From the IMG/VR virus record IMGVR_UViG_3300029181_000038, positions 1-8,016 of that record: a stretch of 8,016 nucleotides of DNA; one strand, written 5' to 3'. The notes below the pieces were generated by a model. The model was not told where the DNA came from and searched no databases. It saw only the letters and a program-made list of their open reading frames with translations. The first letter of the stretch is position 1, and each line of letters opens with the position of its first letter. The position numbers were made by a program, and so were the translations under genes. Positions 1 through 8,016 of this stretch are shown in pieces. Source of the stretch: a virus. Lineage: Duplodnaviria; Heunggongvirae; Uroviricota; Caudoviricetes.

Positions 1-1093
1 TTGAGTCGATACCGATGTATGTCACGTTGTACTGTTCGGTCAGTTTTTTGATGGCGTCAGCCTGGGCGCGGAAGTCCATCCCGCGCCACTGGTGACGTTC
101 AAGAATGCGAAACTTACCGCCTGGCACGGCTGGCGGTGCCACCACCACGCATCCGGCGCTGTCGCCGTTCTGCGTACCTTTTGCCGGGTCATAACCGATC
201 CACACTTCGCGCCAGCCAAACGGGCGCAGGGCCAGTGCATGAAAGTCGCTCCAGACTTCCCAACTGTCCACCATGCACGCCTGCAGCTCGCTGAGCGGGA
301 ACACGGACGCGAGATCGTCCACAAACTCGCACATCAGCAGGTTCTGGTATTCGTCCGGGCTGTACTCCATGCGCAACTGATCGAGGTCGAAAAGGTTACA
401 TCCGCCGCGCACTGCATCTTCCACGGTGACTATCTGGCGGTATTGCCCGTCTGCGCACAGCAGGCCGGGGGCCAGATTGCTGTGGGACAGGTCGATGTCC
501 ACCTTATCGGCTTTGTTGCGCCCACGGTTGAACAGCGCACCAGACCAGAACGGATAAGCACTGTGTGTCAGGCTGGATGGCGTGGAAAAATAGGTTTGTC
601 GCCATTTTTTGTGAATAGCCATACCGGAAGCCACTTTGCGCAGCTCCTGGAATTTCGGTATCCAGAAATATTCATCCAGATACAGGTTGCCGTGATAACT
701 CTGGGCAGTGCGGGCATTGGTGCCGAGGAAGTAAAGCGTGGCCCCGTTAGGAAGCACCATCGGATCGCCTTTCAGCTCCACCTCGACTTCTTTGGCGAAG
801 TCGATGATGTATTGCTTAAAGACGTGAGCCTGTGCCTTACTGGCAGAAAGGAAAATCTGGTTACGTCCGGTAAGCAGGGCGTCAATCAGGGCTTCACGGG
901 CAAAGTAAAAGGTCGCGCCGATCTGGCGTGACTTCAGCAGATTACGGATGCGGTTGGTTTTTCCAGCTTCCCACCAGTGGCGCTGGTAGTTGAACATGGA
1001 GGAATGGAAGATTTCTTCCAGCTTCTCAATCTGTTCATCGGTGAAAACATTCTTTTCCGGCTGACGGCGCGGCCCTTTGTTGCGGTTCCTGCC
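1..1093 (-). pseudogene. P: Phage terminase large (ATPase) subunit, P2 gpP-like; 3' end runs off the left window edge; 5' end appears truncated (no in-frame start between the stop at 1094-1096 and the first ATG at 997-995)
   Basis: Minus-strand frame (codons at 2-4, 5-7, ...) is open across the whole region and translates to ...QPEKNVFTDEQIEKLEEIFHSSMFNYQRHWWEAGKTNRIRNLLKSRQIGATFYFAREALIDALLTGRNQIFLSASKAQAHVFKQYIIDFAKEVEVELKGDPMVLPNGATLYFLGTNARTAQSYHGNLYLDEYFWIP..., which reads as a terminase ATPase domain. It is not in the ORF track because it has no stop inside the window. The listed + ORF 92-931 is its antisense. Whether the gene is truly truncated or simply starts at Met997 is uncertain. 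Confidence 0.6.
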
Positions 1094-1565
1094 TTATCTC
1101 GCCTGGGCGTTCTCTGTGGATCGCTGGGACGAGAGCTGGACAGAAAGCGTCAAGCGCCAGGTGGTGAAGGATGCTTTTTATATTCATCAGCATAAAGGGA
1201 CCACCAGTGCCGTGCGGCGGGTGGTGGAGCCGTTCGGCTTTCTGATCCGCATTATTGAGTGGTGGCAGACCGGAGAGGCACCGGGCACGTTTCGCCTGGA
1301 TATCGGCGTGCAGGACCAGGGCATTACTGAAGATACCTATCTGGAACTTGAGCGACTGATAAGCGATGCCAAACCATGTAGCCGCCACATGATCGGCATG
1401 TCCATCAATCTGCAGACCAGCGGCCCGCATTGGGTGGGAGCCGCCAGCTATCTTGGCGAAGAAATCACGATCTATCCGTATATCAACGAAACGATTATTT
1501 CCGGTGGCACCGCGCATGAAGGCGGGGCGGTCCATGTTATTGACACAATGAGAGTGAATCCATGA
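1077..1565 (+). CDS. I: Baseplate assembly protein, P2 gpI-like, probably N-terminally truncated (frame opens at 1065; only a TTG start at 1077)
   Basis: Translation MLRFLPYLAWAFSVDRWDESWTESVKRQVVKDAFYIHQHKGTTSAVRRVVEPFGFLIRIIEWWQTGEAPGTFRLDIGV... matches the P2 tail protein I family as I remember it. Its stop overlaps the H start (ATGA at 1562-1565), the usual gene order upstream of tail fiber H. Confidence 0.65.
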   Translation: MLRFLPYLAWAFSVDRWDESWTESVKRQVVKDAFYIHQHKGTTSAVRRVVEPFGFLIRIIEWWQTGEAPGTFRLDIGVQDQGITEDTYLELERLISDAKPCSRHMIGMSINLQTSGPHWVGAASYLGEEITIYPYINETIISGGTAHEGGAVHVIDTMRVNP

Positions 1566-2983
1566 GCACAAAATTTTATACCCTGCTGACGGATATTGGC
1601 GCGGCGAAACTTGCCAGCGCCGCCGCGCTCGGTGTGCCGCTAAAAATTACCCATATGGCGGTGGGCGATGGCGGCGGAGCATTGCCGACGCCGGACGCAA
1701 AGCAGACGGCACTGGTAAATGAGAAACGCCGGGCTGCGCTGAATATGCTCTATATCGACCCGCAGAACAGCAGCCAGATTATTGCTGAACAGGTGATCCC
1801 TGAAAACGAGGGCGGTTGGTGGATACGTGAAGTGGGCCTGTTTGATGAGTCAGGGGCATTGATTGCCGTGGGGAACTGCCCGGAAAGCTATAAACCGCAA
1901 CTGGCTGAAGGCAGCGGGCGTACCCAGACCGTGCGCATGGTGCTGATTACCAGCAGCACGGACAATATCACCCTGAAAATCGACCCTGCCGTAGTGCTGG
2001 CAACCCGCAAGTATGTGGATGACAAGGTACTGGAGCTGAAGGTGTACGTGGATGATCAGATGGCAAAACATCTTGCCGCACCGGACCCGCATTCACAGTA
2101 TGCACAGAAAGAAAGTCCGACGTTTACCGGGACACCAAAAGCGCCAACGCCAGCGGCAGGGAATAACACCACGCAGGTTGCGACCACCGCGTTTGTTCAG
2201 GCGGCACTGACGGCCCTTATTAATGGTGCTCCAGCCACGCTGGACACGCTAAAAGAAATAGCCGCAGCCATTAACAATGATCCGAATTTCAGTACCACCA
2301 TTAACAATGCGCTGGCACTGAAAGCGCCGTTGTCGAGTCCGGCACTCACCGGAACGCCAACAGCACCTACTGCGGCACAGTCGGTCAACAATACACAGAT
2401 TGCCACTACGGCTTTTGTGAAATCGGCGATTGCGGCAATGGTAGGTTCTGCACCTGCGGCACTGGATACACTGAACGAACTGGCGGCGGCGCTGGGGAAT
2501 GACCCAAACTTTGCCACGACAATGCTTAATGCACTGGCAGGTAAACAACCGCTGGACAATACGCTGACTAATTTGAGTGGAAAGGATGTAGCTGGTCTTC
2601 TCACATACCTTGGTTTGGGAGAAGCGGCAAAACGGGATGTGGGGACAGGGGAAAATCAGATACCGGATATCTCCAACGTTCCATTTACAAAAAACAATCC
2701 TCTTAATTTTGAGTTACCAGGAGGATTAATTCTGAAAGCCGGGTATGGAAAGCTGACAACGCAGTCCAGTATCTGGATTAATTTCCCTGCAGCATTCCCT
2801 AATGACTGTATTGCCGGAGGAGCTTTAAGTGCGGAAGAGAACACAAATGACTATGTATTTGCTCAAACTACATCACGCAAAGCAGGAGGATTAACTCTGG
2901 CGTTTTATCGTGGGGGCATTAGTCAGCCACCAACAGCCAATTCCAGAGAACTTTCTTTCTCGTGGTTTGCGATAGGATATTAG
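1562..2983 (+). CDS. H: Tail fiber protein, P2 gpH-like; constant N-terminal part (to ~2610) fused to variable C-terminal cassette Hv (2611-2983) in the current orientation
   Basis: 473-aa ORF; N-terminus MSTKFYTLLTDIGAAKLASAAALGVPLKITHMAVGDGGG... is the conserved P2-family tail-fiber N-terminal domain; internal tandem fibre repeats; translationally coupled to upstream I (ATGA) and downstream tfa. Confidence 0.92.
   Translation: MSTKFYTLLTDIGAAKLASAAALGVPLKITHMAVGDGGGALPTPDAKQTALVNEKRRAALNMLYIDPQNSSQIIAEQVIPENEGGWWIREVGLFDESGALIAVGNCPESYKPQLAEGSGRTQTVRMVLITSSTDNITLKIDPAVVLATRKYVDDKVLELKVYVDDQMAKHLAAPDPHSQYAQKESPTFTGTPKAPTPAAGNNTTQVATTAFVQAALTALINGAPATLDTLKEIAAAINNDPNFSTTINNALALKAPLSSPALTGTPTAPTAAQSVNNTQIATTAFVKSAIAAMVGSAPAALDTLNELAAALGNDPNFATTMLNALAGKQPLDNTLTNLSGKDVAGLLTYLGLGEAAKRDVGTGENQIPDISNVPFTKNNPLNFELPGGLILKAGYGKLTTQSSIWINFPAAFPNDCIAGGALSAEENTNDYVFAQTTSRKAGGLTLAFYRGGISQPPTANSRELSFSWFAIGY
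2598..2623. repeat. Left crossover site of invertible segment (gix/cix/hix-like 12-2-12 site) located inside gene H
   Basis: ttctcacatacc-tt-ggtttgggagaa. Its reverse complement ttctcccaaaccaaggtatgtgagaa is identical to the right site at 4437-4462 over the first 14 nt; the exact inverted repeat is 15 nt (2610-2624 vs 4436-4450). Half-sites fit the TTCTC..AAACC pattern of Gin-family recombination sites. Confidence 0.8.
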
Positions 2984-2984
2984 A

Positions 2985-3425
2985 ATGAGAATTTTTTTCA
3001 GTGCATCAACATTGTGGTTTTATGATGAAACTCGCAAAGAAGAATATCACAACGGTATTGGATGGCCAGATGATGCTATCGAAATATCAGATGATGAATG
3101 GAATAAATATACGCAAATTCCTCCTGATGGTTTTATATTAGGTGCCACCTCTCAGGGAAGACCTGCATGGATATTAATATCTCCGCCAGATAAAAAAATG
3201 GTTATGGATATTGCTGAAACTAAAAAACAGCAGTTAATTAGCCAGGCCAATGAATACATGAACAGTAAACAATGGCCCGGTAAAGCCGCTATTGGTCGTC
3301 TGAAAGGCGAGGAACTGGCGCAATATAATTTGTGGCTGGATTACCTGGACGCACTGGAGCTGGTTGATACCTCCAGTGCTCCAGATATTGAATGGCCTAC
3401 GTCTCCGGCAGTTCAGGCCAGATGA
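2985..3425 (+). CDS. G: Tail fiber assembly chaperone (Tfa, P2 gpG / Mu U-like), partner of the currently expressed Hv cassette
   Basis: 146-aa ORF starting 1 nt after the H stop (tag-a-atg) with AGGA 7 nt upstream; C-terminal motif LDYLDALELVDTSSAPDIEWPTSP is typical of Tfa-family chaperones. Confidence 0.85.
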   Translation: MRIFFSASTLWFYDETRKEEYHNGIGWPDDAIEISDDEWNKYTQIPPDGFILGATSQGRPAWILISPPDKKMVMDIAETKKQQLISQANEYMNSKQWPGKAAIGRLKGEELAQYNLWLDYLDALELVDTSSAPDIEWPTSPAVQAR

Positions 3426-3999
3426 CATCCGGCGCTGTGCTGGTATCTGTTGCCGTCACCGCGTCAATGTAATCCAGCACAGCGTTAAGCCGGGTTGTTT
3501 CTGCCTGCGTCAGTTTACGTCCGGCCTGCAATTTCAACTGAATCAGACTGACGGAAGCCATTGCTGCATCAATTAGTGGCTGGCGCAGTGCTTCTGCCGC
3601 GTCTACTGCGGCATTATGCTGTGCCTCAGTATCTGTCACCCATTTCTCACCATCCCATTCATCGTATGGCGTTAACGGAGCGATAGTGGTCGTATTTTCA
3701 TGATAATCACCCGGACCTGTGATTTCTTTCGATTCTCCTGTTTCGGTGCTATAAACGATTTCACCGCGATGGTCTGGCACATATTCCCATGAGTTTAAAT
3801 CCATCGAACGGCAGATAGCATAACCCGCCTTATGTGTGCCAGGGGCATCTAAACAGGAATATGCAGGGATACCGACACCAATGGCAAGATATTCATTTGA
3901 AGTGGAAATATATTCCCGAGTTTCACCATCATAGTTATAGACGGTAATATTCCCCGCCTTCGTGGCAATAAGCTCGCTATTTAATACGGCGTTATCCAT
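3397..3999 (-). CDS. Alternative tail fiber assembly chaperone (tfa'), partner of the silent Hv' cassette
   Basis: 200-aa minus-strand ORF; C-terminal motif LDYIDAVTATDTSTAPDVIWPELPE parallels that of tfa; its ATG overlaps the Hv' stop (TAATG on the minus strand at 4001-3997); 3' end overlaps tfa convergently. Confidence 0.85.
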   Translation of the reverse strand: MDNAVLNSELIATKAGNITVYNYDGETREYISTSNEYLAIGVGIPAYSCLDAPGTHKAGYAICRSMDLNSWEYVPDHRGEIVYSTETGESKEITGPGDYHENTTTIAPLTPYDEWDGEKWVTDTEAQHNAAVDAAEALRQPLIDAAMASVSLIQLKLQAGRKLTQAETTRLNAVLDYIDAVTATDTSTAPDVIWPELPET

Positions 4000-4449
4000 T
4001 ATGCAGCCCTCACGATATAGTTAAATGCAATATTTCGTGGACGGGTTTCACTCCCGCCGGGGAGCTGAAAAGCGTTGATAATCCCACCGCTTGCCTGACT
4101 TATTCCATCCGTGTACAACCCGCCACCGGCACTGTCGCTGAGTGCAAATGTTTTTGATGGTGAACTGTTTGAAGCTGGCCCCCAGTATTTTAATGCGAGC
4201 TTTCTGACTTCATCACTCTGAATACTCAATAAAGCACGCCCTGTATCAATGCCGCGCCCATCATCCCAGCCACGAATAAACTCACCACGTAAATCAGGCA
4301 ATTTATTTGTCGGATAAGCCTTTGCCAGTTCCGGGTATTCTTCAGCAGAAAAAGCTGCACCGTTGCATTTCAGCCAGCCTGTCGGCGGAGTGGCTGAAGG
4401 CCATGGAACAGGGACACCAACAGGTAATGCCGAACCTTCTCCCAAACCA
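3999..4449 (-). CDS. Silent alternative tail-fiber C-terminal cassette (Hv'); no start or promoter of its own; would be fused in frame to the H constant region after inversion
   Basis: Minus-strand frame reads ...VGLGEGSALPVGVPVPWPSATPPTGWLKCNGAAFSAEEYPELAKAYPTNKLPDLRGEFIRGWDDGRGIDTGRALLSIQSDEV...NIAFNYIVRAA, which looks like a side-tail-fibre receptor-binding C-terminus. The GLGE codons sit on the crossover repeat in the same codon phase as LGLGE of H (2609-2623). The ORF-track start MMPVARYL at 4490 lies on or beyond the crossover site and is probably not used. Confidence 0.8.
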
Positions 4450-4462
4450 ACGTTTATGAAAA
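4437..4462. repeat. Right crossover site of invertible segment (gix/cix/hix-like), ~55 bp upstream of the invertase gene
   Basis: ttctcccaaacc-aa-cgtttatgaaaa; inverted copy of the site at 2598-2623; imperfectly palindromic around a central AA dinucleotide. Confidence 0.8.
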
Positions 4463-4517
4463 TGCAGAGATAACGGGCAACTGGCATCATCTCCGGTTTT
4501 TATTCAGGGGGATGCTC

Positions 4518-5084
4518 ATGCTTATTGGCTATGTACGCGTGTCAACAAATGACCAGAACACGGAATTGCAGCGTAACGCGCTGGAGTGCGCAGGATGCGA
4601 GCGGATTTTTGAGGATAAAATCAGCGGCACGAAGTCCGACCGACCGGGACTGAAAAAACTGCTCAGAACACTATCGGCAGGAGACACGCTGGTTGTCTGG
4701 AAGCTGGACAGGTTGGGGCGCAGTATGCGGCATCTTGTTACGCTGATAGAAGAGTTGCGCCAGCGTGGCGTGAATTTCCGAAGCCTGACTGACAGTATTG
4801 ATACCAGTACCCCAATGGGCCGTTTCTTTTTTCATGTCATGGGTGCCCTGGCTGAAATGGAACGCGAACTGATAGTTGAACGTACCAGGGCAGGGCTGGC
4901 TGCAGCTCGTGTTAAAGGCAGAGTAGGTGGACGCCGTCCTAAGTTGACCAGCGAACAGTGGGCACAGATTGGGCGTTTACTCGAGGCCGGAGAATCAAGA
5001 CAGCGTATTGCACTGATTTTTGATGTAGGCGTTTCTACCATTTATCGAAAATTTCCGGCAAATAAGAGCAATGAATCTCCCTGA
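4518..5084 (+). CDS. Site-specific DNA invertase, serine recombinase of the Gin/Pin/Cin/Hin family
   Basis: MLIGYVRVSTNDQNTELQRNALECAGCERIFEDKISGTKSDRPGLKKLLRTLSAGDTLVVWKLDRLGRSMRHLV...GRFFFHVMGALAEMERELIVERT...GGRRPKLT... with a C-terminal HTH (VGVSTIYRKF); catalytic Ser in the YVRVSTNDQ motif. Start chosen at ATG 4518 (AGGGGG at 4505-4510, 7-nt spacing) rather than the in-frame ATG at 4512, which sits too close to the SD. Confidence 0.93.
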   Translation: MLIGYVRVSTNDQNTELQRNALECAGCERIFEDKISGTKSDRPGLKKLLRTLSAGDTLVVWKLDRLGRSMRHLVTLIEELRQRGVNFRSLTDSIDTSTPMGRFFFHVMGALAEMERELIVERTRAGLAAARVKGRVGGRRPKLTSEQWAQIGRLLEAGESRQRIALIFDVGVSTIYRKFPANKSNESP

Positions 5085-5132
5085 CTCAGCTTTATTTTGA
5101 TTATCCCTGAAAGCAGACAAATACCGTCATTT

Positions 5133-5150
5133 TGTGTGAATAACGGTACA
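5133..5150 (+). promoter_or_regulatory. P2-type late promoter activator element (TGT-N12-ACA, Ogr/Delta-family binding site) upstream of FI
   Basis: tgt-gtgaataacggt-aca in the 142-bp FI upstream region, centred ~85 bp before the FI ATG; consistent with a -55-centred Ogr site and a ~30-nt leader. No strong -35 is visible, as expected for activator-dependent late promoters. Exact -10 not assigned. Confidence 0.5.
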
Positions 5151-5226
5151 ACTGCGCTTAGCTGTTTGTCAGGCACAATCACTTCAACATAGGGCGAAGC
5201 CTAATCCAATCAGGAGGTTCGCCACT

Positions 5227-6399
5227 ATGGCTCAGGATTACCACCACGGGGTGCGCGTTGTTGAAGTCAACGAAGGCACTCGATCCATTACTACGGTGAG
5301 CACCGCCATCGTGGGCATGGTCTGCACGGGCGATGATGCCGATGCAAAAATGTTCCCTCTTAATAAACCCGTGCTGATCACTGATGTGCTTACTGCCAGC
5401 GGTAAAGCGGGTGAGTCCGGTACGCTGGCCCGTTCGCTGGATGCCATCGCTGACCAGGCAAAACCCGTGACCGTTGTTGTGCGTGTGCCGCAGGGTGAAA
5501 CGGAAGACGAAACCACGACCAATATCATCGGCGCAGTGACTGCTGAAGGTAAAAAAACAGGTATGAAAGCCCTGTTATCTGCCCAGTCACAGCTCGGCGT
5601 TAAACCGCGCATTCTCGGCGTGCCAGGCCACGACACCAAGGCGGTAGCTACTGAGTTGCTGAGCATGGCGCAAAGCCTGCGTGGATTTGCTTACCTGTCA
5701 GCATATGGCTGCAAGACGGTACAGGAGGCGATCACTTACCGTGAAAACTTTAGCCAGCGCGAAGGGATGCTGATCTGGCCTGACTTTACTGGCTGGGACA
5801 CTGTGCTGAATGCCGAAGCAACGGCATATGCCACCGCCCGTGCGCTTGGTCTGCGCGCCAAAATTGACGAGCAAACCGGATGGCACAAAAGCCTGTCCAA
5901 CGTGGGCGTGAACGGTGTCACCGGAATTTCTGCAGATGTGTTCTGGGATCTGCAGGACCCGGCAACCGATGCAGGTCTGCTGAACCAGAACGACGTCACC
6001 ACGCTTGTGCGCAAGGATGGTTTTCGCTTCTGGGGTTCCCGCTGTCTGAGCGATGATCCGCTCTTTGCCTTCGAAAACTACACCCGCACGGCGCAGGTGC
6101 TGATGGACACGATGGCAGAAGCGCACATGTGGGCGGTGGACAAACCGCTGAACCAGTCGCTGGCCCGCGACATTATCGAAGGTATCCGCGCCAAAATGCG
6201 CAGCCTGGTCAGTCAGGGCTATCTCATTGGTGGTGATTGCTGGCTGGACGAGTCGGTGAACGATAAAGACACGCTGAAAGCCGGGAAGCTCACCATCGAC
6301 TACGACTACACGCCAGTGCCGCCACTTGAAAATCTGATGCTGCGCCAGCGCATCACCGATCAGTATCTGGTGAATTTTGCCAGCCAGGTCAGCGCGTAA
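5227..6399 (+). CDS. FI: Contractile tail sheath protein, P2 gpFI-like
   Basis: 390-aa ORF; [40 protein letters not shown]...[19 protein letters not shown]...[24 protein letters not shown] closely matches the P2 sheath protein as I remember it; RBS CAGGAGG at 5211-5217. Confidence 0.93.
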
Positions 6400-6408
6400 G
6401 GGGACAAC

Positions 6409-6924
6409 ATGGCTTTACCACGCAAATTAAAACATCTGAACCTGTTTAACGACGGGAACAACTGGCAGGGGATCGTAGAGTCGCTGACGCTGCCGAAATT
6501 CACCCGCAAATATGAGAAGTATCGCGGCGGCGGAATGCCAGGTGCAGTGGATGTGGATCTGGGGCTTGATGACAGTGCGCTGGACACAGAATTTTCCATT
6601 GGTGGTACTGAACTGCTGCTGTTTAAGCAGATGGGCAAAGCCACGGTGGATGGCATCCAGTTGCGCTTTACCGGCTCTATCCAGCGTGACGATACCGGGG
6701 AAGTGCAGGCCGTGGAGCTTGTGGTGCGTGGACGTCACAAAGAAGTTGACTCTGGTGAGTGGAAGACGGGCGAAAGCAACACCACCAAAGTGACCAGTAC
6801 CAACAGCTACGCGAAGCTGACCATCAATGGTGAGGTGCTCTATGAAGTGGACCTTATCAACATGGTGGAAATTGTGGACGGTGTGGACCTGATGGAAGCG
6901 CACCGCAACGCACTCGGCCTCTGA
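6409..6924 (+). CDS. FII: Tail tube protein, P2 gpFII-like
   Basis: 171-aa ORF 9 nt after FI with RBS AAGGGGA; MALPRKLKHLNLFNDGNNWQGIVESLTLPKFTRKYEKYRGGGMPGAVDVDLGLDD... fits the P2 tail tube family; conserved FI-FII order. Confidence 0.9.
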   Translation: MALPRKLKHLNLFNDGNNWQGIVESLTLPKFTRKYEKYRGGGMPGAVDVDLGLDDSALDTEFSIGGTELLLFKQMGKATVDGIQLRFTGSIQRDDTGEVQAVELVVRGRHKEVDSGEWKTGESNTTKVTSTNSYAKLTINGEVLYEVDLINMVEIVDGVDLMEAHRNALGL

Positions 6925-6935
6925 TGTATCTGAAC

Positions 6936-6953
6936 GGCGCGGAATGCCGCGCC
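6936..6953 (+). other. GC-rich hairpin (7-bp stem GGCGCGG/CCGCGCC, 4-nt loop) between FII and E; no following U-tract
   Basis: ggcgcgg-aatg-ccgcgcc seen directly, 12 nt after the FII stop. Not a canonical intrinsic terminator; could be an mRNA stability or processing element that affects the FII:E expression ratio. Confidence 0.3.
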
Positions 6954-6978
6954 AGAACCCAATTTACAGGACAGCAAA

Positions 6979-7281
6979 ATGAGCGATAAGCAGACTGAAA
7001 AGACCATTCAACTGGATACCCCCATCAAGCGCGGTAAAACAGAAATCACCGAAATTGTGCTGCGTAAACCGCAGTCTGGTGCGCTGCGCGGCACACGCCT
7101 GCAGGCCATTATGGATATGGATGTGAACGCGATGATGACCGTGATCCCCCGCATCTCCAGTCCGGCACTGACTGCACAGGAAATCGCAGAGATGGACCCG
7201 GCAGATCTCACAGCCATGTCGGTTGAGGTTGTCACTTTTTTGTTGAAGAAGTCGGTGCTTGCCGGTTTACCGACAGCCTGA
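6979..7281 (+). CDS. E: Tail assembly chaperone, P2 gpE-like (zero-frame product)
   Basis: 100-aa ORF MSDKQTEKTIQLDTPIKRGKTEITEIVLRKPQSG...; position between the tube gene and the tape-measure gene, as for P2 E and lambda G. Confidence 0.85.
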   Translation: MSDKQTEKTIQLDTPIKRGKTEITEIVLRKPQSGALRGTRLQAIMDMDVNAMMTVIPRISSPALTAQEIAEMDPADLTAMSVEVVTFLLKKSVLAGLPTA

Positions 7282-7415
7282 CGGTTGACGATCTGGTGGC
7301 AGATATCGCCACCATTTTTCACTGGCCGCCATCCGTTACTGACGTTATGCCGCTGACCGAAGTGCTGGAATGGCGGTATAAAGCGATTCAGAGATGCGGG
7401 GCCAACGATGAGTGA
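6979..7415 (+). CDS. E+E': Frameshift fusion product E+E' (tail assembly chaperone long form), made by -1 slippage at 7236-7242
   Basis: -1 frame after the slip site encodes VEEVGACRFTDSLTVDDLVADIATIFHWPPSVTDVMPLTEVLEWRYKAIQRCGANDE with no stop until 7413-7415, which overlaps the T start (ATG 7408). This matches the known P2 E/E' arrangement. Confidence 0.7.
7236..7242 (+). promoter_or_regulatory. Programmed -1 ribosomal frameshift slippery heptamer T-TTT-TTG within E
   Basis: Zero-frame codons TTT (7237-7239) and TTG (7240-7242); the -1 frame is open from 7242 to a TGA at 7413-7415. Confidence 0.75.
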
Positions 7416-8016
7416 TAACAACCTGCGCCTGCAGGTCATTCTTAATGCGGTTGACAAACTCACCCGCCCATTCCGTGCTGCACAGGCCAGTTCGAAAGAG
7501 CTGGCTGGCGCAATCAGAAACTCCCGTGACGCATTAAAGCAACTCAATCAGGTGGGTAACAGCCTGGAAAAATTTCGCAAGCTGCAGGCTGATAACAAGA
7601 AGTTAGGCGACAGGCTGAACTATGCCAGACAGAAGGCTAATTTGCTTAGCTCTGAGCTGGAGGCGATGGAGCAACCATCACAAAGGCATCTTGTGGCTTT
7701 AGGTCGGCAAACGCTGGCAGTCCAACGCCTGGAAGAACAACAAAAATATTTGCAGAAGCAAACGGCGCTTGTGCGTGCTGAACTGTACCGGGCGGGAATT
7801 TCTGCGAAAGATGATGCGGGAGCAACTGCCCGTTTAGCCCGTGAAACATCACGTTATAACCAGGAACTTTCGAAACAGGAGGCGCGGCTGAAGCGACTGG
7901 GGGAAGCTCAGCGCAGGATGAATGCAGCGCGTGCCAGTTATGCCCGTTCGCTGGAGGTGCGTGATCGTATTGCAGGTGCCGGAGCCACCACCACGGCTGC
8001 AGGGCTGGCAATGGGC
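7408..8016 (+). CDS. T: Tail tape measure protein, P2 gpT-like, N-terminal 203 codons (continues beyond the window)
   Basis: Open frame from ATG 7408 to the window end: MSDNNLRLQVILNAVDKLTRPFRAAQASSKELAGAIRNSRDALKQLNQVGNSLEKFRKLQADNKKLGDRLNYARQKANLLSSELEAMEQ..., a coiled-coil-rich N-terminus typical of tape-measure proteins. Missing from the ORF track because it has no stop in the window; the listed minus ORFs 7008-7547 and 7646-8011 are its antisense. Confidence 0.85.
   Translation, partial: MSDNNLRLQVILNAVDKLTRPFRAAQASSKELAGAIRNSRDALKQLNQVGNSLEKFRKLQADNKKLGDRLNYARQKANLLSSELEAMEQPSQRHLVALGRQTLAVQRLEEQQKYLQKQTALVRAELYRAGISAKDDAGATARLARETSRYNQELSKQEARLKRLGEAQRRMNAARASYARSLEVRDRIAGAGATTTAAGLAMG

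What the first reader, a model, noticed from the sequence alone, without database searches (positions are those of the whole stretch)
2598..2623. Crossover site inside H preserves reading frame and a GLGE motif across both cassettes
The 15-nt exact inverted repeat (2610-2624 and 4436-4450) encodes (L/V)GLGE in the same codon phase in H (ctt-ggt-ttg-gga-gaa at 2609-2623) and on the minus strand of Hv'. Recombination at the central dinucleotide (2610-2611 and 4449-4450) would therefore create an in-frame H(1-~350)-Hv' fusion. Both 26-bp sites are imperfect palindromes with TTCTC..AAACC half-sites, like gix/cix/hix. The site doubles as coding sequence, which constrains its evolution.
Basis: seen in the sequence. 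Interest (0 to 1): 0.6.

Follow-up and report, generated by a model that had tools for sequence, protein, structure and literature searches.

The report
Pin-type tail-fibre inversion crossover site

Summary
The observation and the interpretation are both confirmed. The arms 2598-2624 and 4436-4462 form the longest inverted repeat in the window, with a 15-nt exact core. They flank a 1839-bp segment that carries two convergent tail-fibre tip and chaperone cassettes. A Gin-family serine invertase gene sits next to the right arm.

Inverting the segment in silico gives a 499-aa in-frame H-Hv' fusion whose stop overlaps the tfa' start. The inverted sequence matches E. coli 14EC007 over all 2401 nt with about one mismatch, and H there is annotated at 1500 nt. 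Two O157:H7 strains carry a related segment in opposite orientations, with the breakpoints inside the shared core.

The right site is 26/26 identical to the published pixR of prophage e14. Both sites align without gaps to pix, cix and gix, and the central TT falls on the crossover annotated in P1.

The site-coded peptide xLGLxE is read in the same codon phase in e14, Mu, P1 and P2 tail-fibre genes.

The host element is a deleted, defective P2-like prophage.

Verdict: a correct reading of an already known kind of system. Interest is low.

The parts
1562..2610 (+). Constant part of tail-fibre gene H (codons 1-350, up to the crossover core); carries the only start codon of the fibre gene
   Evidence: ORF 1562-2983. 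Pfam Phage_tail_fib N-terminal domain aa 1-150, E=2.9e-65. 50% identical to P2 gpH over aa 1-360. 100% identical to 14EC007 over 1086-2624.
2598..2623 (.). Left 26-bp crossover site (pixL-like), TTCTCACATACC-TT-GGTTTGGGAGAA, inside H; codes LLTYLGLGE
   Evidence: ungapped alignment to pix/cix/gix. 22/26 to published pixL and pixR. Internal dyad 10/12.
2610..2611 (.). Central dinucleotide TT of the left site, the inferred 2-bp staggered cleavage and exchange point; 2nd and 3rd bases of codon 350 (CTT)
   Evidence: Aligns to the P1 cixL crossover annotated between the two central T, and to the Mu G-segment boundary. Natural isomers place the breakpoint within the identical 15-nt core but cannot resolve it further.
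2611..4449 (.). Invertible segment, 1839 bp between the two cores
   Evidence: This segment lies on the opposite strand relative to both flanks in E. coli 14EC007. The homologous segment is mirrored between two O157:H7 strains.
2611..2983 (+). Hv cassette: C-terminal tip now joined to H (gives the 473-aa fibre)
   Evidence: Pfam Gp53-like_C aa 385-473, E=2.2e-11. 25% identical to the C-terminal part of e14 StfP.
2985..3425 (+). tfa: tail-fibre assembly chaperone cognate to Hv (146 aa)
   Evidence: Pfam Caudo_TAP E=4.8e-31; PHROG 188, tail fiber assembly protein.
3397..3999 (-). tfa': chaperone cognate to Hv' (200 aa), silent in this orientation
   Evidence: Pfam Caudo_TAP E=2.5e-29. 89% identical to e14 TfaE.
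3999..4449 (-). Hv' cassette: alternative C-terminal tip with no start codon of its own, silent in this orientation
   Evidence: Pfam phage tail Collar domain E=9e-16. First 73 aa identical to e14 StfE. Joined to Hc it gives the 499-aa ORF, matching the 1500-nt gene annotated in 14EC007 and in O157 ECP19-2498.
4437..4462 (.). Right 26-bp crossover site, TTCTCCCAAACC-AA-CGTTTATGAAAA; core AA at 4449-4450
   Evidence: 26/26 identical to published pixR (PMC3241671 Table 3) and to the e14 site in the K-12 genome.
4518..5084 (+). Serine DNA invertase (Pin/Gin/Cin subfamily, 188 aa; the listed ORF starts two codons earlier, at 4512)
   Evidence: Pfam Resolvase + HTH_7. PDB Gin 3UJ3 E=2.5e-92. 84% identical to PinE, 77% to Cin, 74% to Gin, 86% to the O157 homologue, with the N-terminal MLIGYVRVSTNDQ (Ser9) conserved. 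PHROG 125, DNA invertase.
4536..4607 (.). Probable recombinational enhancer (Fis-dependent by homology) inside the 5' end of the invertase gene; Fis-consensus-like 15-mers at 4540-4554 and 4588-4602
   Evidence: Equivalent to cin nt 19-90, annotated as the enhancer in P1. 78% identical to P1 here against 68% in the rest of the gene. Two consensus matches 48 bp apart are conserved in all five invertase genes; 25/5000 shuffles give such a pair. Synonymous codon identity is raised in the first ~48 codons. This is an inference, not a demonstration.

Best explanation
The flagged sequence is the left recombination site of a two-site, Pin-type (Din family: Hin/Gin/Cin/Pin) DNA-inversion switch in the tail-fibre operon of a P2-like prophage of E. 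coli. Dimers of the serine invertase encoded at 4518-5084 bind the two 26-bp sites. Probably with Fis bound to an enhancer inside the 5' end of its own gene, the invertase makes 2-bp staggered double-strand cuts at the identical central TT/AA dinucleotides (2610-2611 and 4449-4450). It rotates one pair of half-sites by 180 degrees and religates, which flips the 1839-bp segment. The cores sit at codon positions 2-3 of the same Leu/Val codon in both cassettes. The constant 350-codon head of H is therefore joined in frame either to Hv (473-aa fibre, followed by tfa) or to Hv' (499-aa fibre, coupled to tfa'). The other cassette has no start codon or promoter and stays silent. The biological result is alternation of the receptor-binding tip, and so of host range. 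Shown here: the sites, their identity to pix, the in-frame fusion, the intact invertase, and natural genomes in both orientations with breakpoints inside the core. Inferred from family knowledge: cleavage at the central dinucleotide, dependence on Fis and the enhancer, and the host-range consequence. In this particular element a deletion has removed the head, lysis and baseplate genes and the late promoter of the V-W-J-I-H-G operon. The switch here is therefore most likely a still-flippable relic.
For: The inverted repeat and its codon phase were checked. In-silico inversion gives a 499-aa ORF coupled to tfa'. The inverted sequence matches E. coli 14EC007 over 2401 nt with about 1 mismatch, and H there is annotated at 1500 nt. 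In the window against 14EC007, both flanks lie on one strand (100% and 99.97%) and 2598-4450 on the other. O157:H7 FRIK944 and ECP19-2498 have identical flanks and a mirrored segment, with the same protein accessions on opposite strands and the switch point inside TTGGTTTGGGAGAAG. The right site equals published pixR 26/26, and the ungapped alignment to pix/cix/gix puts the core on the annotated P1 crossover. The e14 repeats reported as the inversion sites, TTGGTTTGGGAGAAGG, contain the window's 15-mer (PMC12529663). The invertase is 74-86% identical to Gin, Cin, PinE and the O157 homologue, and its best PDB hit is Gin. The enhancer-equivalent region has two conserved Fis-consensus matches 48 bp apart. 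Phase variation by inversion in P2-like prophages of E. coli has been seen experimentally (PMC4272514).
Against: Nothing contradicts the explanation, but several steps are untested. No reads or cultures were examined, so flipping in this very element is inferred from sister genomes. Natural isomers place the breakpoint only within the 15-nt identical core. The enhancer call rests on homology within a strongly conserved coding region and on a degenerate consensus recalled from the literature. The deletion at 1085/1086 removes the operon's normal promoter, so the fibre may not be expressed at all in this element.
Confidence: 0.93

Rival explanations
1. The switch is a dead relic. The repeats and cassettes are left over from a once-active system, and the opposite orientations in different genomes are old, fixed states rather than ongoing flipping.
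For: The host element is defective: the terminase lacks about 113 codons, gpI lacks about 42 codons, and everything between them is missing. No read-level data were examined.
Against: The invertase ORF is intact, with the catalytic-serine motif and 84% identity to active PinE. Both sites are intact, and one is identical to functional pixR. The window and 14EC007 differ by 0-1 substitutions over about 5 kb of flanks yet hold opposite orientations. Clonal O157:H7 strains also differ in orientation. These points argue for recent, repeated flipping.
Confidence: 0.05
2. In this defective prophage the switch has been taken over by the host. Inversion would change which short 'orphan' protein (a 13-codon leader next to the invertase plus the distal cassette) is made. 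Such a protein could block adsorption of other phages, as reported for the e14 chimera StfE2.
For: PMC12529663 reports that inversion of the e14 P segment at the same repeat creates StfE2, which blocks T2 adsorption. The window has the analogous ORF 3999-4490 on the minus strand. Hv' and tfa' are close homologues of e14 StfE and TfaE.
Against: No promoter-like site was found for the orphan ORF. By reading the sequence, its GGAG lies 0-3 nt from the ATGs, a poor spacing. The cassette that would form the StfE2 analogue (Hv) is only 25% identical to the StfP C-terminus. The same locus sits in apparently complete P2-like prophages and in sequenced phages, so virion host range is the simpler role.
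Confidence: 0.05
3. The inversion is made by general (RecA) homologous recombination between the inverted repeats, or the repeat is a chance match, and the neighbouring recombinase plays no part.
For: A 15-nt exact inverted repeat arises in 2.5% of shuffled windows.
Against: The repeat is 26/26 identical to a published recombinase site and lies next to a Pin homologue. It is in the same codon phase as in four other systems. Fifteen bp of identity is below the roughly 25-bp minimum for efficient RecA recombination (established knowledge, not tested here).
Confidence: 0.01

Closest known systems
e14 cryptic prophage P segment (PinE / pixL-pixR) of E. coli K-12
   Same: The right site is identical, 26/26, and the repeat core TTGGTTTGGGAGAAG is the same. 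The invertase is 84% identical. tfa' is 89% identical to TfaE, and the first 73 aa of Hv' are identical to StfE. Segment sizes are similar (1839 against 1797 bp). The crossover is in frame in a tail-fibre gene, and the invertase gene sits just outside the right site.
   Different: The host element is a P2-like myovirus prophage (gpI, H, sheath FI, tube FII), not the lambdoid e14. The outer half of the left site differs (TTCTCACATACC against CTCTCGAAAACC). The Hv cassette is only 25% identical to the StfP C-terminus. The constant part is a P2 H-type fibre.
Phage Mu G segment (Gin / gix) and phage P1 C segment (Cin / cix)
   Same: The architecture is the same: constant Sc joined to Sv-U or Sv'-U', convergent cassettes, 26-bp sites with a 2-bp core inside the fibre ORF, and the invertase gene flanking the segment. 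P1 has an enhancer annotated at the start of cin. The site-coded xLGLxE peptide is in the same phase.
   Different: The invertases are 74-77% identical. The sites match at 17-21 of 26 positions, and the Mu core is GA/TC. The segments are about 3 kb (Mu) and 4.2 kb (P1, with 0.6-kb repeats). The cassette sequences are unrelated.
Invertible tail-fibre loci of P2-like prophages in E. coli (EPEC E2348/69; O157:H7)
   Same: This is the same kind of element. Phase variation by inversion in P2-like prophages was detected by sequencing (PMC4272514). The O157:H7 locus is colinear with the window, about 91% identical over roughly 78% of the 2300-4700 query, and is found in both orientations.
   Different: One EPEC prophage has three repeats and four isomers. 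This window has only two sites. The cassette alleles differ.
Salmonella Hin / hix flagellar phase switch
   Same: The recombinase subfamily and the site design are the same. The sites match hixL at 20/26.
   Different: Hin flips a promoter rather than swapping coding C-termini, and the hin gene lies inside the segment (established knowledge, not tested here).
Multiple-inversion systems (Min of p15B; Rci shufflons)
   Same: They also shuffle the C-termini of adhesin or fibre genes by site-specific inversion.
   Different: Those systems have many sites. Shufflons use a tyrosine recombinase and 19-bp sfx sites (established knowledge). Here there are two sites and a serine invertase.

Membership tests
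Din (Hin/Gin/Cin/Pin) serine-invertase DNA inversion systems | A small serine recombinase of about 190 aa (N-terminal catalytic domain with Ser9/10, C-terminal HTH) encoded next to the invertible segment | tested here: met
   Pfam Resolvase + HTH_7. Gin structure 3UJ3 E=2.5e-92. 74-86% identical to Gin, Cin, PinE and the O157 homologue, with MLIGYVRVSTNDQ conserved. The gene starts 56 bp after the right site.
Din (Hin/Gin/Cin/Pin) serine-invertase DNA inversion systems | Two 26-bp sites in inverted orientation, each made of two imperfect 12-bp half-sites around a 2-bp core, matching the family consensus | tested here: met
   Ungapped alignment to pix, cix and gix from real records, with T-C..A.AC.T.GGTTT....GAA invariant. 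26/26 to pixR and 22/26 to pixL. By hand, 14 of 15 positions of the published dix consensus match at each site, assuming one dash was lost in the text copy of the table.
Din (Hin/Gin/Cin/Pin) serine-invertase DNA inversion systems | Identical core dinucleotides at the two sites, so that religation after 180-degree rotation restores base pairing | tested here: met
   TT at 2610-2611 and AA at 4449-4450, which is TT on the other strand.
Din (Hin/Gin/Cin/Pin) serine-invertase DNA inversion systems | The segment is actually found in both orientations, with junctions inside the sites | tested here: met
   Window against 14EC007. O157:H7 FRIK944 against ECP19-2498. Resolution is limited to the 15-nt identical core.
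Din (Hin/Gin/Cin/Pin) serine-invertase DNA inversion systems | A cis-acting recombinational enhancer with two Fis sites about 48 bp apart | tested here: inconclusive
   The region equivalent to the annotated P1 enhancer is 78% identical, against 68% for the rest of the gene. Two matches to (G/T)NNYRNNWNNYRNN(C/A), 48 bp apart, are conserved in five invertase genes; 25/5000 shuffles give such a pair. The region is coding and the consensus was recalled from the literature. There are no binding data.
Din (Hin/Gin/Cin/Pin) serine-invertase DNA inversion systems | Dependence on Fis and supercoiling; 2-bp staggered cleavage with a 5'-phosphoserine link | not testable with these tools
   This is biochemical and is inferred from family membership only.
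Phage tail-fibre host-range switches (Mu G, P1 C, e14 P type) | Crossover inside the fibre ORF: a constant N-terminal part is joined in frame to either of two convergent C-terminal cassettes, each followed by its own assembly chaperone | tested here: met
   473-aa and 499-aa products. Cassette domains are Gp53-like_C and Collar, and there are two Caudo_TAP genes. The codon phase is the same as in Mu S, P1 S and e14 StfP.
Shufflon / multiple-inversion systems | More than two crossover sites; for shufflons, a tyrosine recombinase (Rci) | tested here: not met
   Only two matches to the core even with 3 mismatches allowed. The recombinase is a serine enzyme.

The most novel reading that the evidence does not exclude
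The prophage has lost its head, lysis and baseplate genes and the late promoter of the fibre operon, so the retained, intact and still-flippable switch may no longer serve a virion. It could instead be kept by the host as a recombinase-driven defence toggle, like the e14 StfE2 case. There, inversion changes which short leader-plus-cassette protein is made, and that protein blocks adsorption of other phages.
Probability: 0.05. Interest if true: 0.5.

Novelty: already known. Interest (0 to 1): 0.12.

Why it matters
It matters mainly for annotation. The locus should be read as one tail-fibre gene with two alternative C-termini, not as several separate "phage tail protein" or "gp53-like" genes. 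Assemblies that differ by this 1.8-kb inversion are isomers, not misassemblies or distinct alleles. It also shows again that the xLGLxE joint, which is the translation of the invertase-binding site, marks a module boundary shared by Mu, P1, e14 and P2-type fibres. No open question is advanced.

Tried and rejected
- **Deletion junction:** The junction at 1066-1105 was searched in species-representative genomes and gave no hit. A 400-nt query across it found no complete E. coli genome covering it. It was found only in an ENA metagenome contig.
- **Truncated gpI:** An exact look-up of the truncated gpI protein found nothing on record.
- **pix core in P2 H:** The pix-type core does not occur in P2 gene H. 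A gix-type 26-mer does.
- **Promoter and terminator scan:** The scan of 2400-5300 found fewer promoter-like sites than shuffles give and nothing useful for the invertase or the orphan ORF. It did find a hairpin with a T-run at 4479-4498.
- **Strict Fis pattern:** G-N13-C 15-mers with an A/T-rich centre did not give a consistent pair. The older degenerate consensus did.
- **Synonymous-site test:** The test for extra constraint over the enhancer gave only a modest excess, 0.58 against 0.46 pairwise codon identity on 19 codons.
- **Extra crossover sites:** A search for further sites (Min- or shufflon-like) found none.
- **Cassette similarity:** Hv and Hv' share nothing beyond the site-coded pentapeptide.
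- **Technical problems:** My scripted count against the published 'dix' consensus was off by one because the text copy of the table is one character short, so I counted by hand.
Full report
**1. The observation**

Positions 2610-2624 (TTGGTTTGGGAGAAG) and 4436-4450 (CTTCTCCCAAACCAA) are exact reverse complements. With mismatches the repeat extends to 2598-2624 / 4436-4462 (27 nt, 85%) and is the longest inverted repeat in the window.

A 15-nt exact inverted repeat is only moderately unlikely on its own: 5 of 200 dinucleotide-preserving shuffles reach 15 nt. The 14-mer core occurs nowhere else in the window, even with three mismatches allowed. What follows puts the repeat far beyond chance.

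H is the ORF 1562-2983 (473 aa). Codons 350-354 are CTT GGT TTG GGA GAA = LGLGE at 2609-2623. On the minus strand, 4451-4437 reads GTT GGT TTG GGA GAA = VGLGE in the frame of the ORF that ends at 3999. The central dinucleotides of the two 26-mers (2610-2611 TT; 4449-4450 AA) are the second and third bases of the Leu/Val codon in both.

**2. In-silico inversion**

Inverting 2610-4450 or 2611-4449 gives the same sequence, because the cores are identical. The result is a single 499-aa ORF from 1562...DVAGLLTYLGLGEGSALPVGVPVPWPS...NIAFNYIVRAA. Its TAA overlaps the ATG of the next gene (GCATAATGG). Off-register inversions (2611-4450, 2610-4449) truncate the ORF at 385 and 375 aa.

**3. Anatomy**

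- **Constant part and Hv:** The constant part of H carries the P2-type N-terminal fibre domain. The present C-terminus (Hv) is a Gp53-like_C domain.
- **tfa and tfa':** 2985-3425 (+) and 3397-3999 (-) are both Caudo_TAP fibre-assembly chaperones. They converge and overlap by 29 nt.
- **Hv':** 3999-4449 (-) has a phage tail Collar domain.
- **Invertase:** 4518-5084 (+) is a Resolvase + HTH_7 protein. Its best solved relative is Mu Gin (3UJ3, E=2.5e-92). It is 84% identical to PinE of e14, 77% to P1 Cin, 74% to Mu Gin and 86% to the O157:H7 homologue, with the N-terminal MLIGYVRVSTNDQ motif intact. That alignment places the real start at 4518, not at 4512.
- **Downstream genes:** the P2-type sheath (FI), tube (FII), E and tape-measure genes follow.
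- **The two cassettes:** Hv and Hv' share nothing beyond the site-coded pentapeptide.

**4. Both orientations exist in nature**

The in-silico inverted 2300-4700 sequence matches E. coli 14EC007 (NZ_CP024131.1) over all 2401 nt with about one mismatch. It also matches two further strains at 99.8% and 98.8%. The window's own orientation reaches at most 78% coverage in any of 5,426 complete E. coli genomes.

A direct comparison with 14EC007 shows window 1086-2624 (100%) and 4436-8016 (99.97%) on one strand and 2598-4450 on the other. In that genome H is annotated at 1500 nt, which is the predicted 499 aa plus a stop. Hv lies next to the invertase as an orphan "gp53-like" ORF.

Two O157:H7 strains give independent support. 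FRIK944 and ECP19-2498 carry a colinear locus, about 91% identical over roughly 78% of the query, with identical flanks and an exactly mirrored segment. The same protein accessions appear on opposite strands at mirrored coordinates. A six-way alignment of the junctions shows the sequences swapping partners immediately after ...TTGGTTTGGGAGAAG. The breakpoints therefore lie inside the shared core. The data are consistent with the central dinucleotide but cannot resolve it.

**5. Comparison of the sites with the known family**

I took reference sites from real records:

- P1: cixL and cixR with their annotated crossover points.
- Mu: the annotated G-segment boundaries.
- e14 in K-12 MG1655.

Ten sites align without gaps, with T-C..A.AC.T.GGTTT....GAA invariant. 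The window's TT falls on the P1 crossover, annotated "between nt 32224/32225", and on the Mu boundary.

Against the published Din-family table (PMC3241671, Table 3) the matches out of 26 are:

| Window site | pixR | pixL | cixR | hixL | gix |
|---|---|---|---|---|---|
| Right, 4437-4462 | 26 | 21 | 19 | 20 | 17 |
| Left, 2598-2623 (reverse complement) | 22 | 22 | 21 | 20 | 17 |

The repeats reported as the e14 inversion sites, TTGGTTTGGGAGAAGG / CCTTCTCCCAAACCAA (PMC12529663), contain the window's 15-mer. The exact pixR 26-mer occurs only in Escherichia/Shigella among 185,579 species representatives.

The two inner half-sites are exactly TTCTCCCAAACC. The outer ones are degenerate, at 10/12 and 8/12, as in pix and cix.

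**6. The site as coding sequence**

Each site was translated in the frame of its fibre gene:

| Gene | Site-coded peptide |
|---|---|
| Window H | YLGLGE |
| Window Hv' | NVGLGE |
| e14 StfP | NLGLGE |
| e14 StfE | NVGLGE |
| Mu S and S' | NLGLQE |
| P1 S | YLGLRE |
| P1 S' | NLGLRE |
| O157 H | YLGLGE |

All are in the same phase, and G, L and E are invariant. The invariant residues are the translation of the invariant DNA positions (GGTTT...GAA). The variable residue (G/Q/R) falls on the non-consensus positions. The recombinase-binding requirement and the peptide are therefore locked together. This link is my inference.

P2 gene H has no invertase and no partner site, yet it still carries an in-frame gix-like 26-mer (23/26 to gixL) coding VIEYLGLQE. 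The joint thus marks a module boundary across fibre families.

**7. Enhancer**

P1 annotates the Cin enhancer at cin nt 19-90. The equivalent region of the window, 4536-4607, is 78% identical to P1 and 74% to Mu, against 68% and 66% for the rest of the gene. Synonymous codon identity among the five genes is higher in the first ~48 codons (0.54-0.64) than further on (0.33-0.49).

Two matches to the degenerate Fis consensus (G/T)NNYRNNWNNYRNN(C/A) lie at gene nt 23-37 and 71-85. That consensus is recalled from the cin-enhancer literature and was not verified here. The two matches are 48 bp apart and are conserved in all five invertase genes. Only 25 of 5000 shuffles give such a pair. This fits a Fis-dependent enhancer but does not prove one.

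**8. Context**

The element is a defective P2-like prophage. Window 1-1085 is the minus-strand terminase large subunit. It lacks about 113 N-terminal codons by comparison with E. coli M8. It abuts gpI, which lacks about 42 codons.

The P/O promoter region, the capsid, lysis and baseplate genes, and the late promoter of the V-W-J-I-H-G operon are therefore gone (operon organisation from established knowledge of P2). The junction is absent from complete E. coli genomes and from species representatives. It is present in an ENA metagenome contig with the same gene order, which is probably the source of the window.

Apparently complete sister prophages (14EC007) and sequenced phages with a colinear invertase locus (Escherichia phages 500465-1 and Cartapus, several Klebsiella phages) show that the switch belongs to functional viruses.

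**9. Mechanism**

Dimers of the invertase bind the two sites. With the Fis-bound enhancer they form the invertasome. 2-bp staggered cuts are made at the identical TT/AA cores, followed by subunit rotation and religation. The 1839-bp segment flips.

Hc (codons 1-350) is then read into either Hv + tfa or Hv' + tfa'. This changes the receptor-binding tip together with its matched chaperone. The distal cassette has no start codon and is silent.

- **Shown here:** the sites, the frame, the intact enzyme and the natural isomers.
- **Inferred from the family:** the cleavage chemistry, Fis dependence and the host-range effect.

**10. Rival explanations**

- **A frozen relic** is unlikely. Near-identical genomes differ in orientation.
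- **RecA recombination or chance** is excluded for practical purposes by the site's identity to pixR and its setting.
- **A host-side defence role** of orphan leader-plus-cassette proteins, as claimed for e14 StfE2, cannot be excluded for this defective element. It has no positive support here: no promoter was found, the Shine-Dalgarno spacing is poor, and Hv is only 25% identical to the StfP tip.

**11. Verdict**

The closest named relative is pix/Pin of e14 rather than gix, cix or hix. This is a well-understood, already described kind of system, and phase variation in P2-like prophages has been reported (PMC4272514). Its value is mainly in correct annotation.

Noticed in passing
window 1-1565 (junction at 1085/1086): The minus-strand terminase large-subunit gene, lacking about 113 N-terminal codons, is fused to gpI lacking about 42 codons. 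This is an internal deletion of roughly 10 kb that makes the P2-like prophage defective and removes the late promoter of the fibre operon. The junction is absent from 5,426 complete E. coli genomes and from species-representative genomes. It is present in ENA metagenome contig L012 at 5505-5544.
   Followed up: yes
L012 1-1405 (ENA ERZ19662054 contig, upstream of the window): A SIR2 (PADLOC E=6e-211) plus HerA anti-phage defence gene pair, and a PIN_12-domain gene, lie beside the portal gene of the same defective prophage. This looks like defence cargo in a P2-type hotspot.
   Followed up: partly
L011 1858-1883 (phage P2 gene H): P2 H contains an in-frame 26-mer that is 23/26 identical to Mu gixL and codes VIEYLGLQE. 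P2 has no invertase and no partner site in the H-G region searched. It looks like a fossil or module-boundary copy of the crossover site.
   Followed up: partly
window 3335-3478: The two chaperone genes converge and overlap by 29 nt (3397-3425). An 18-nt inverted repeat (3335-3352 / 3461-3478, 89%) encodes their shared C-terminal LDY(L/I)DA motif on both strands. The same repeat is present in e14.
   Followed up: no
window 3999-4490 (-); L002 763-2184; L001 5973-6386: RefSeq annotation treats the silent cassette as a free-standing gene by borrowing a 13-codon leader (MMPVARYLCIFIN) from the spacer next to the invertase. In O157 FRIK944 it splits the H region 763-2184 into a pseudogene and a separate gp53-like ORF. 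That region is 1422 nt, in frame by coordinates, and identical up to the crossover to the H gene annotated intact in ECP19-2498; I did not translate it. These look like annotation artefacts of the invertible design.
   Followed up: partly
window 4479-4498 (+): A hairpin followed by a T-run lies between the right crossover site and the invertase start. It is conserved in e14 and O157 and partly in Mu. It may terminate read-through from the fibre operon before the invertase gene.
   Followed up: no
window 2598-4450 versus other E. coli genomes: About 3,000 of 5,426 complete E. coli genomes hold similar segments, with a median of 2 and up to 15 places per genome. Some relatives have three chaperone genes or an IS1 insertion in the locus, which suggests cassette exchange and multi-cassette variants.
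   Followed up: no
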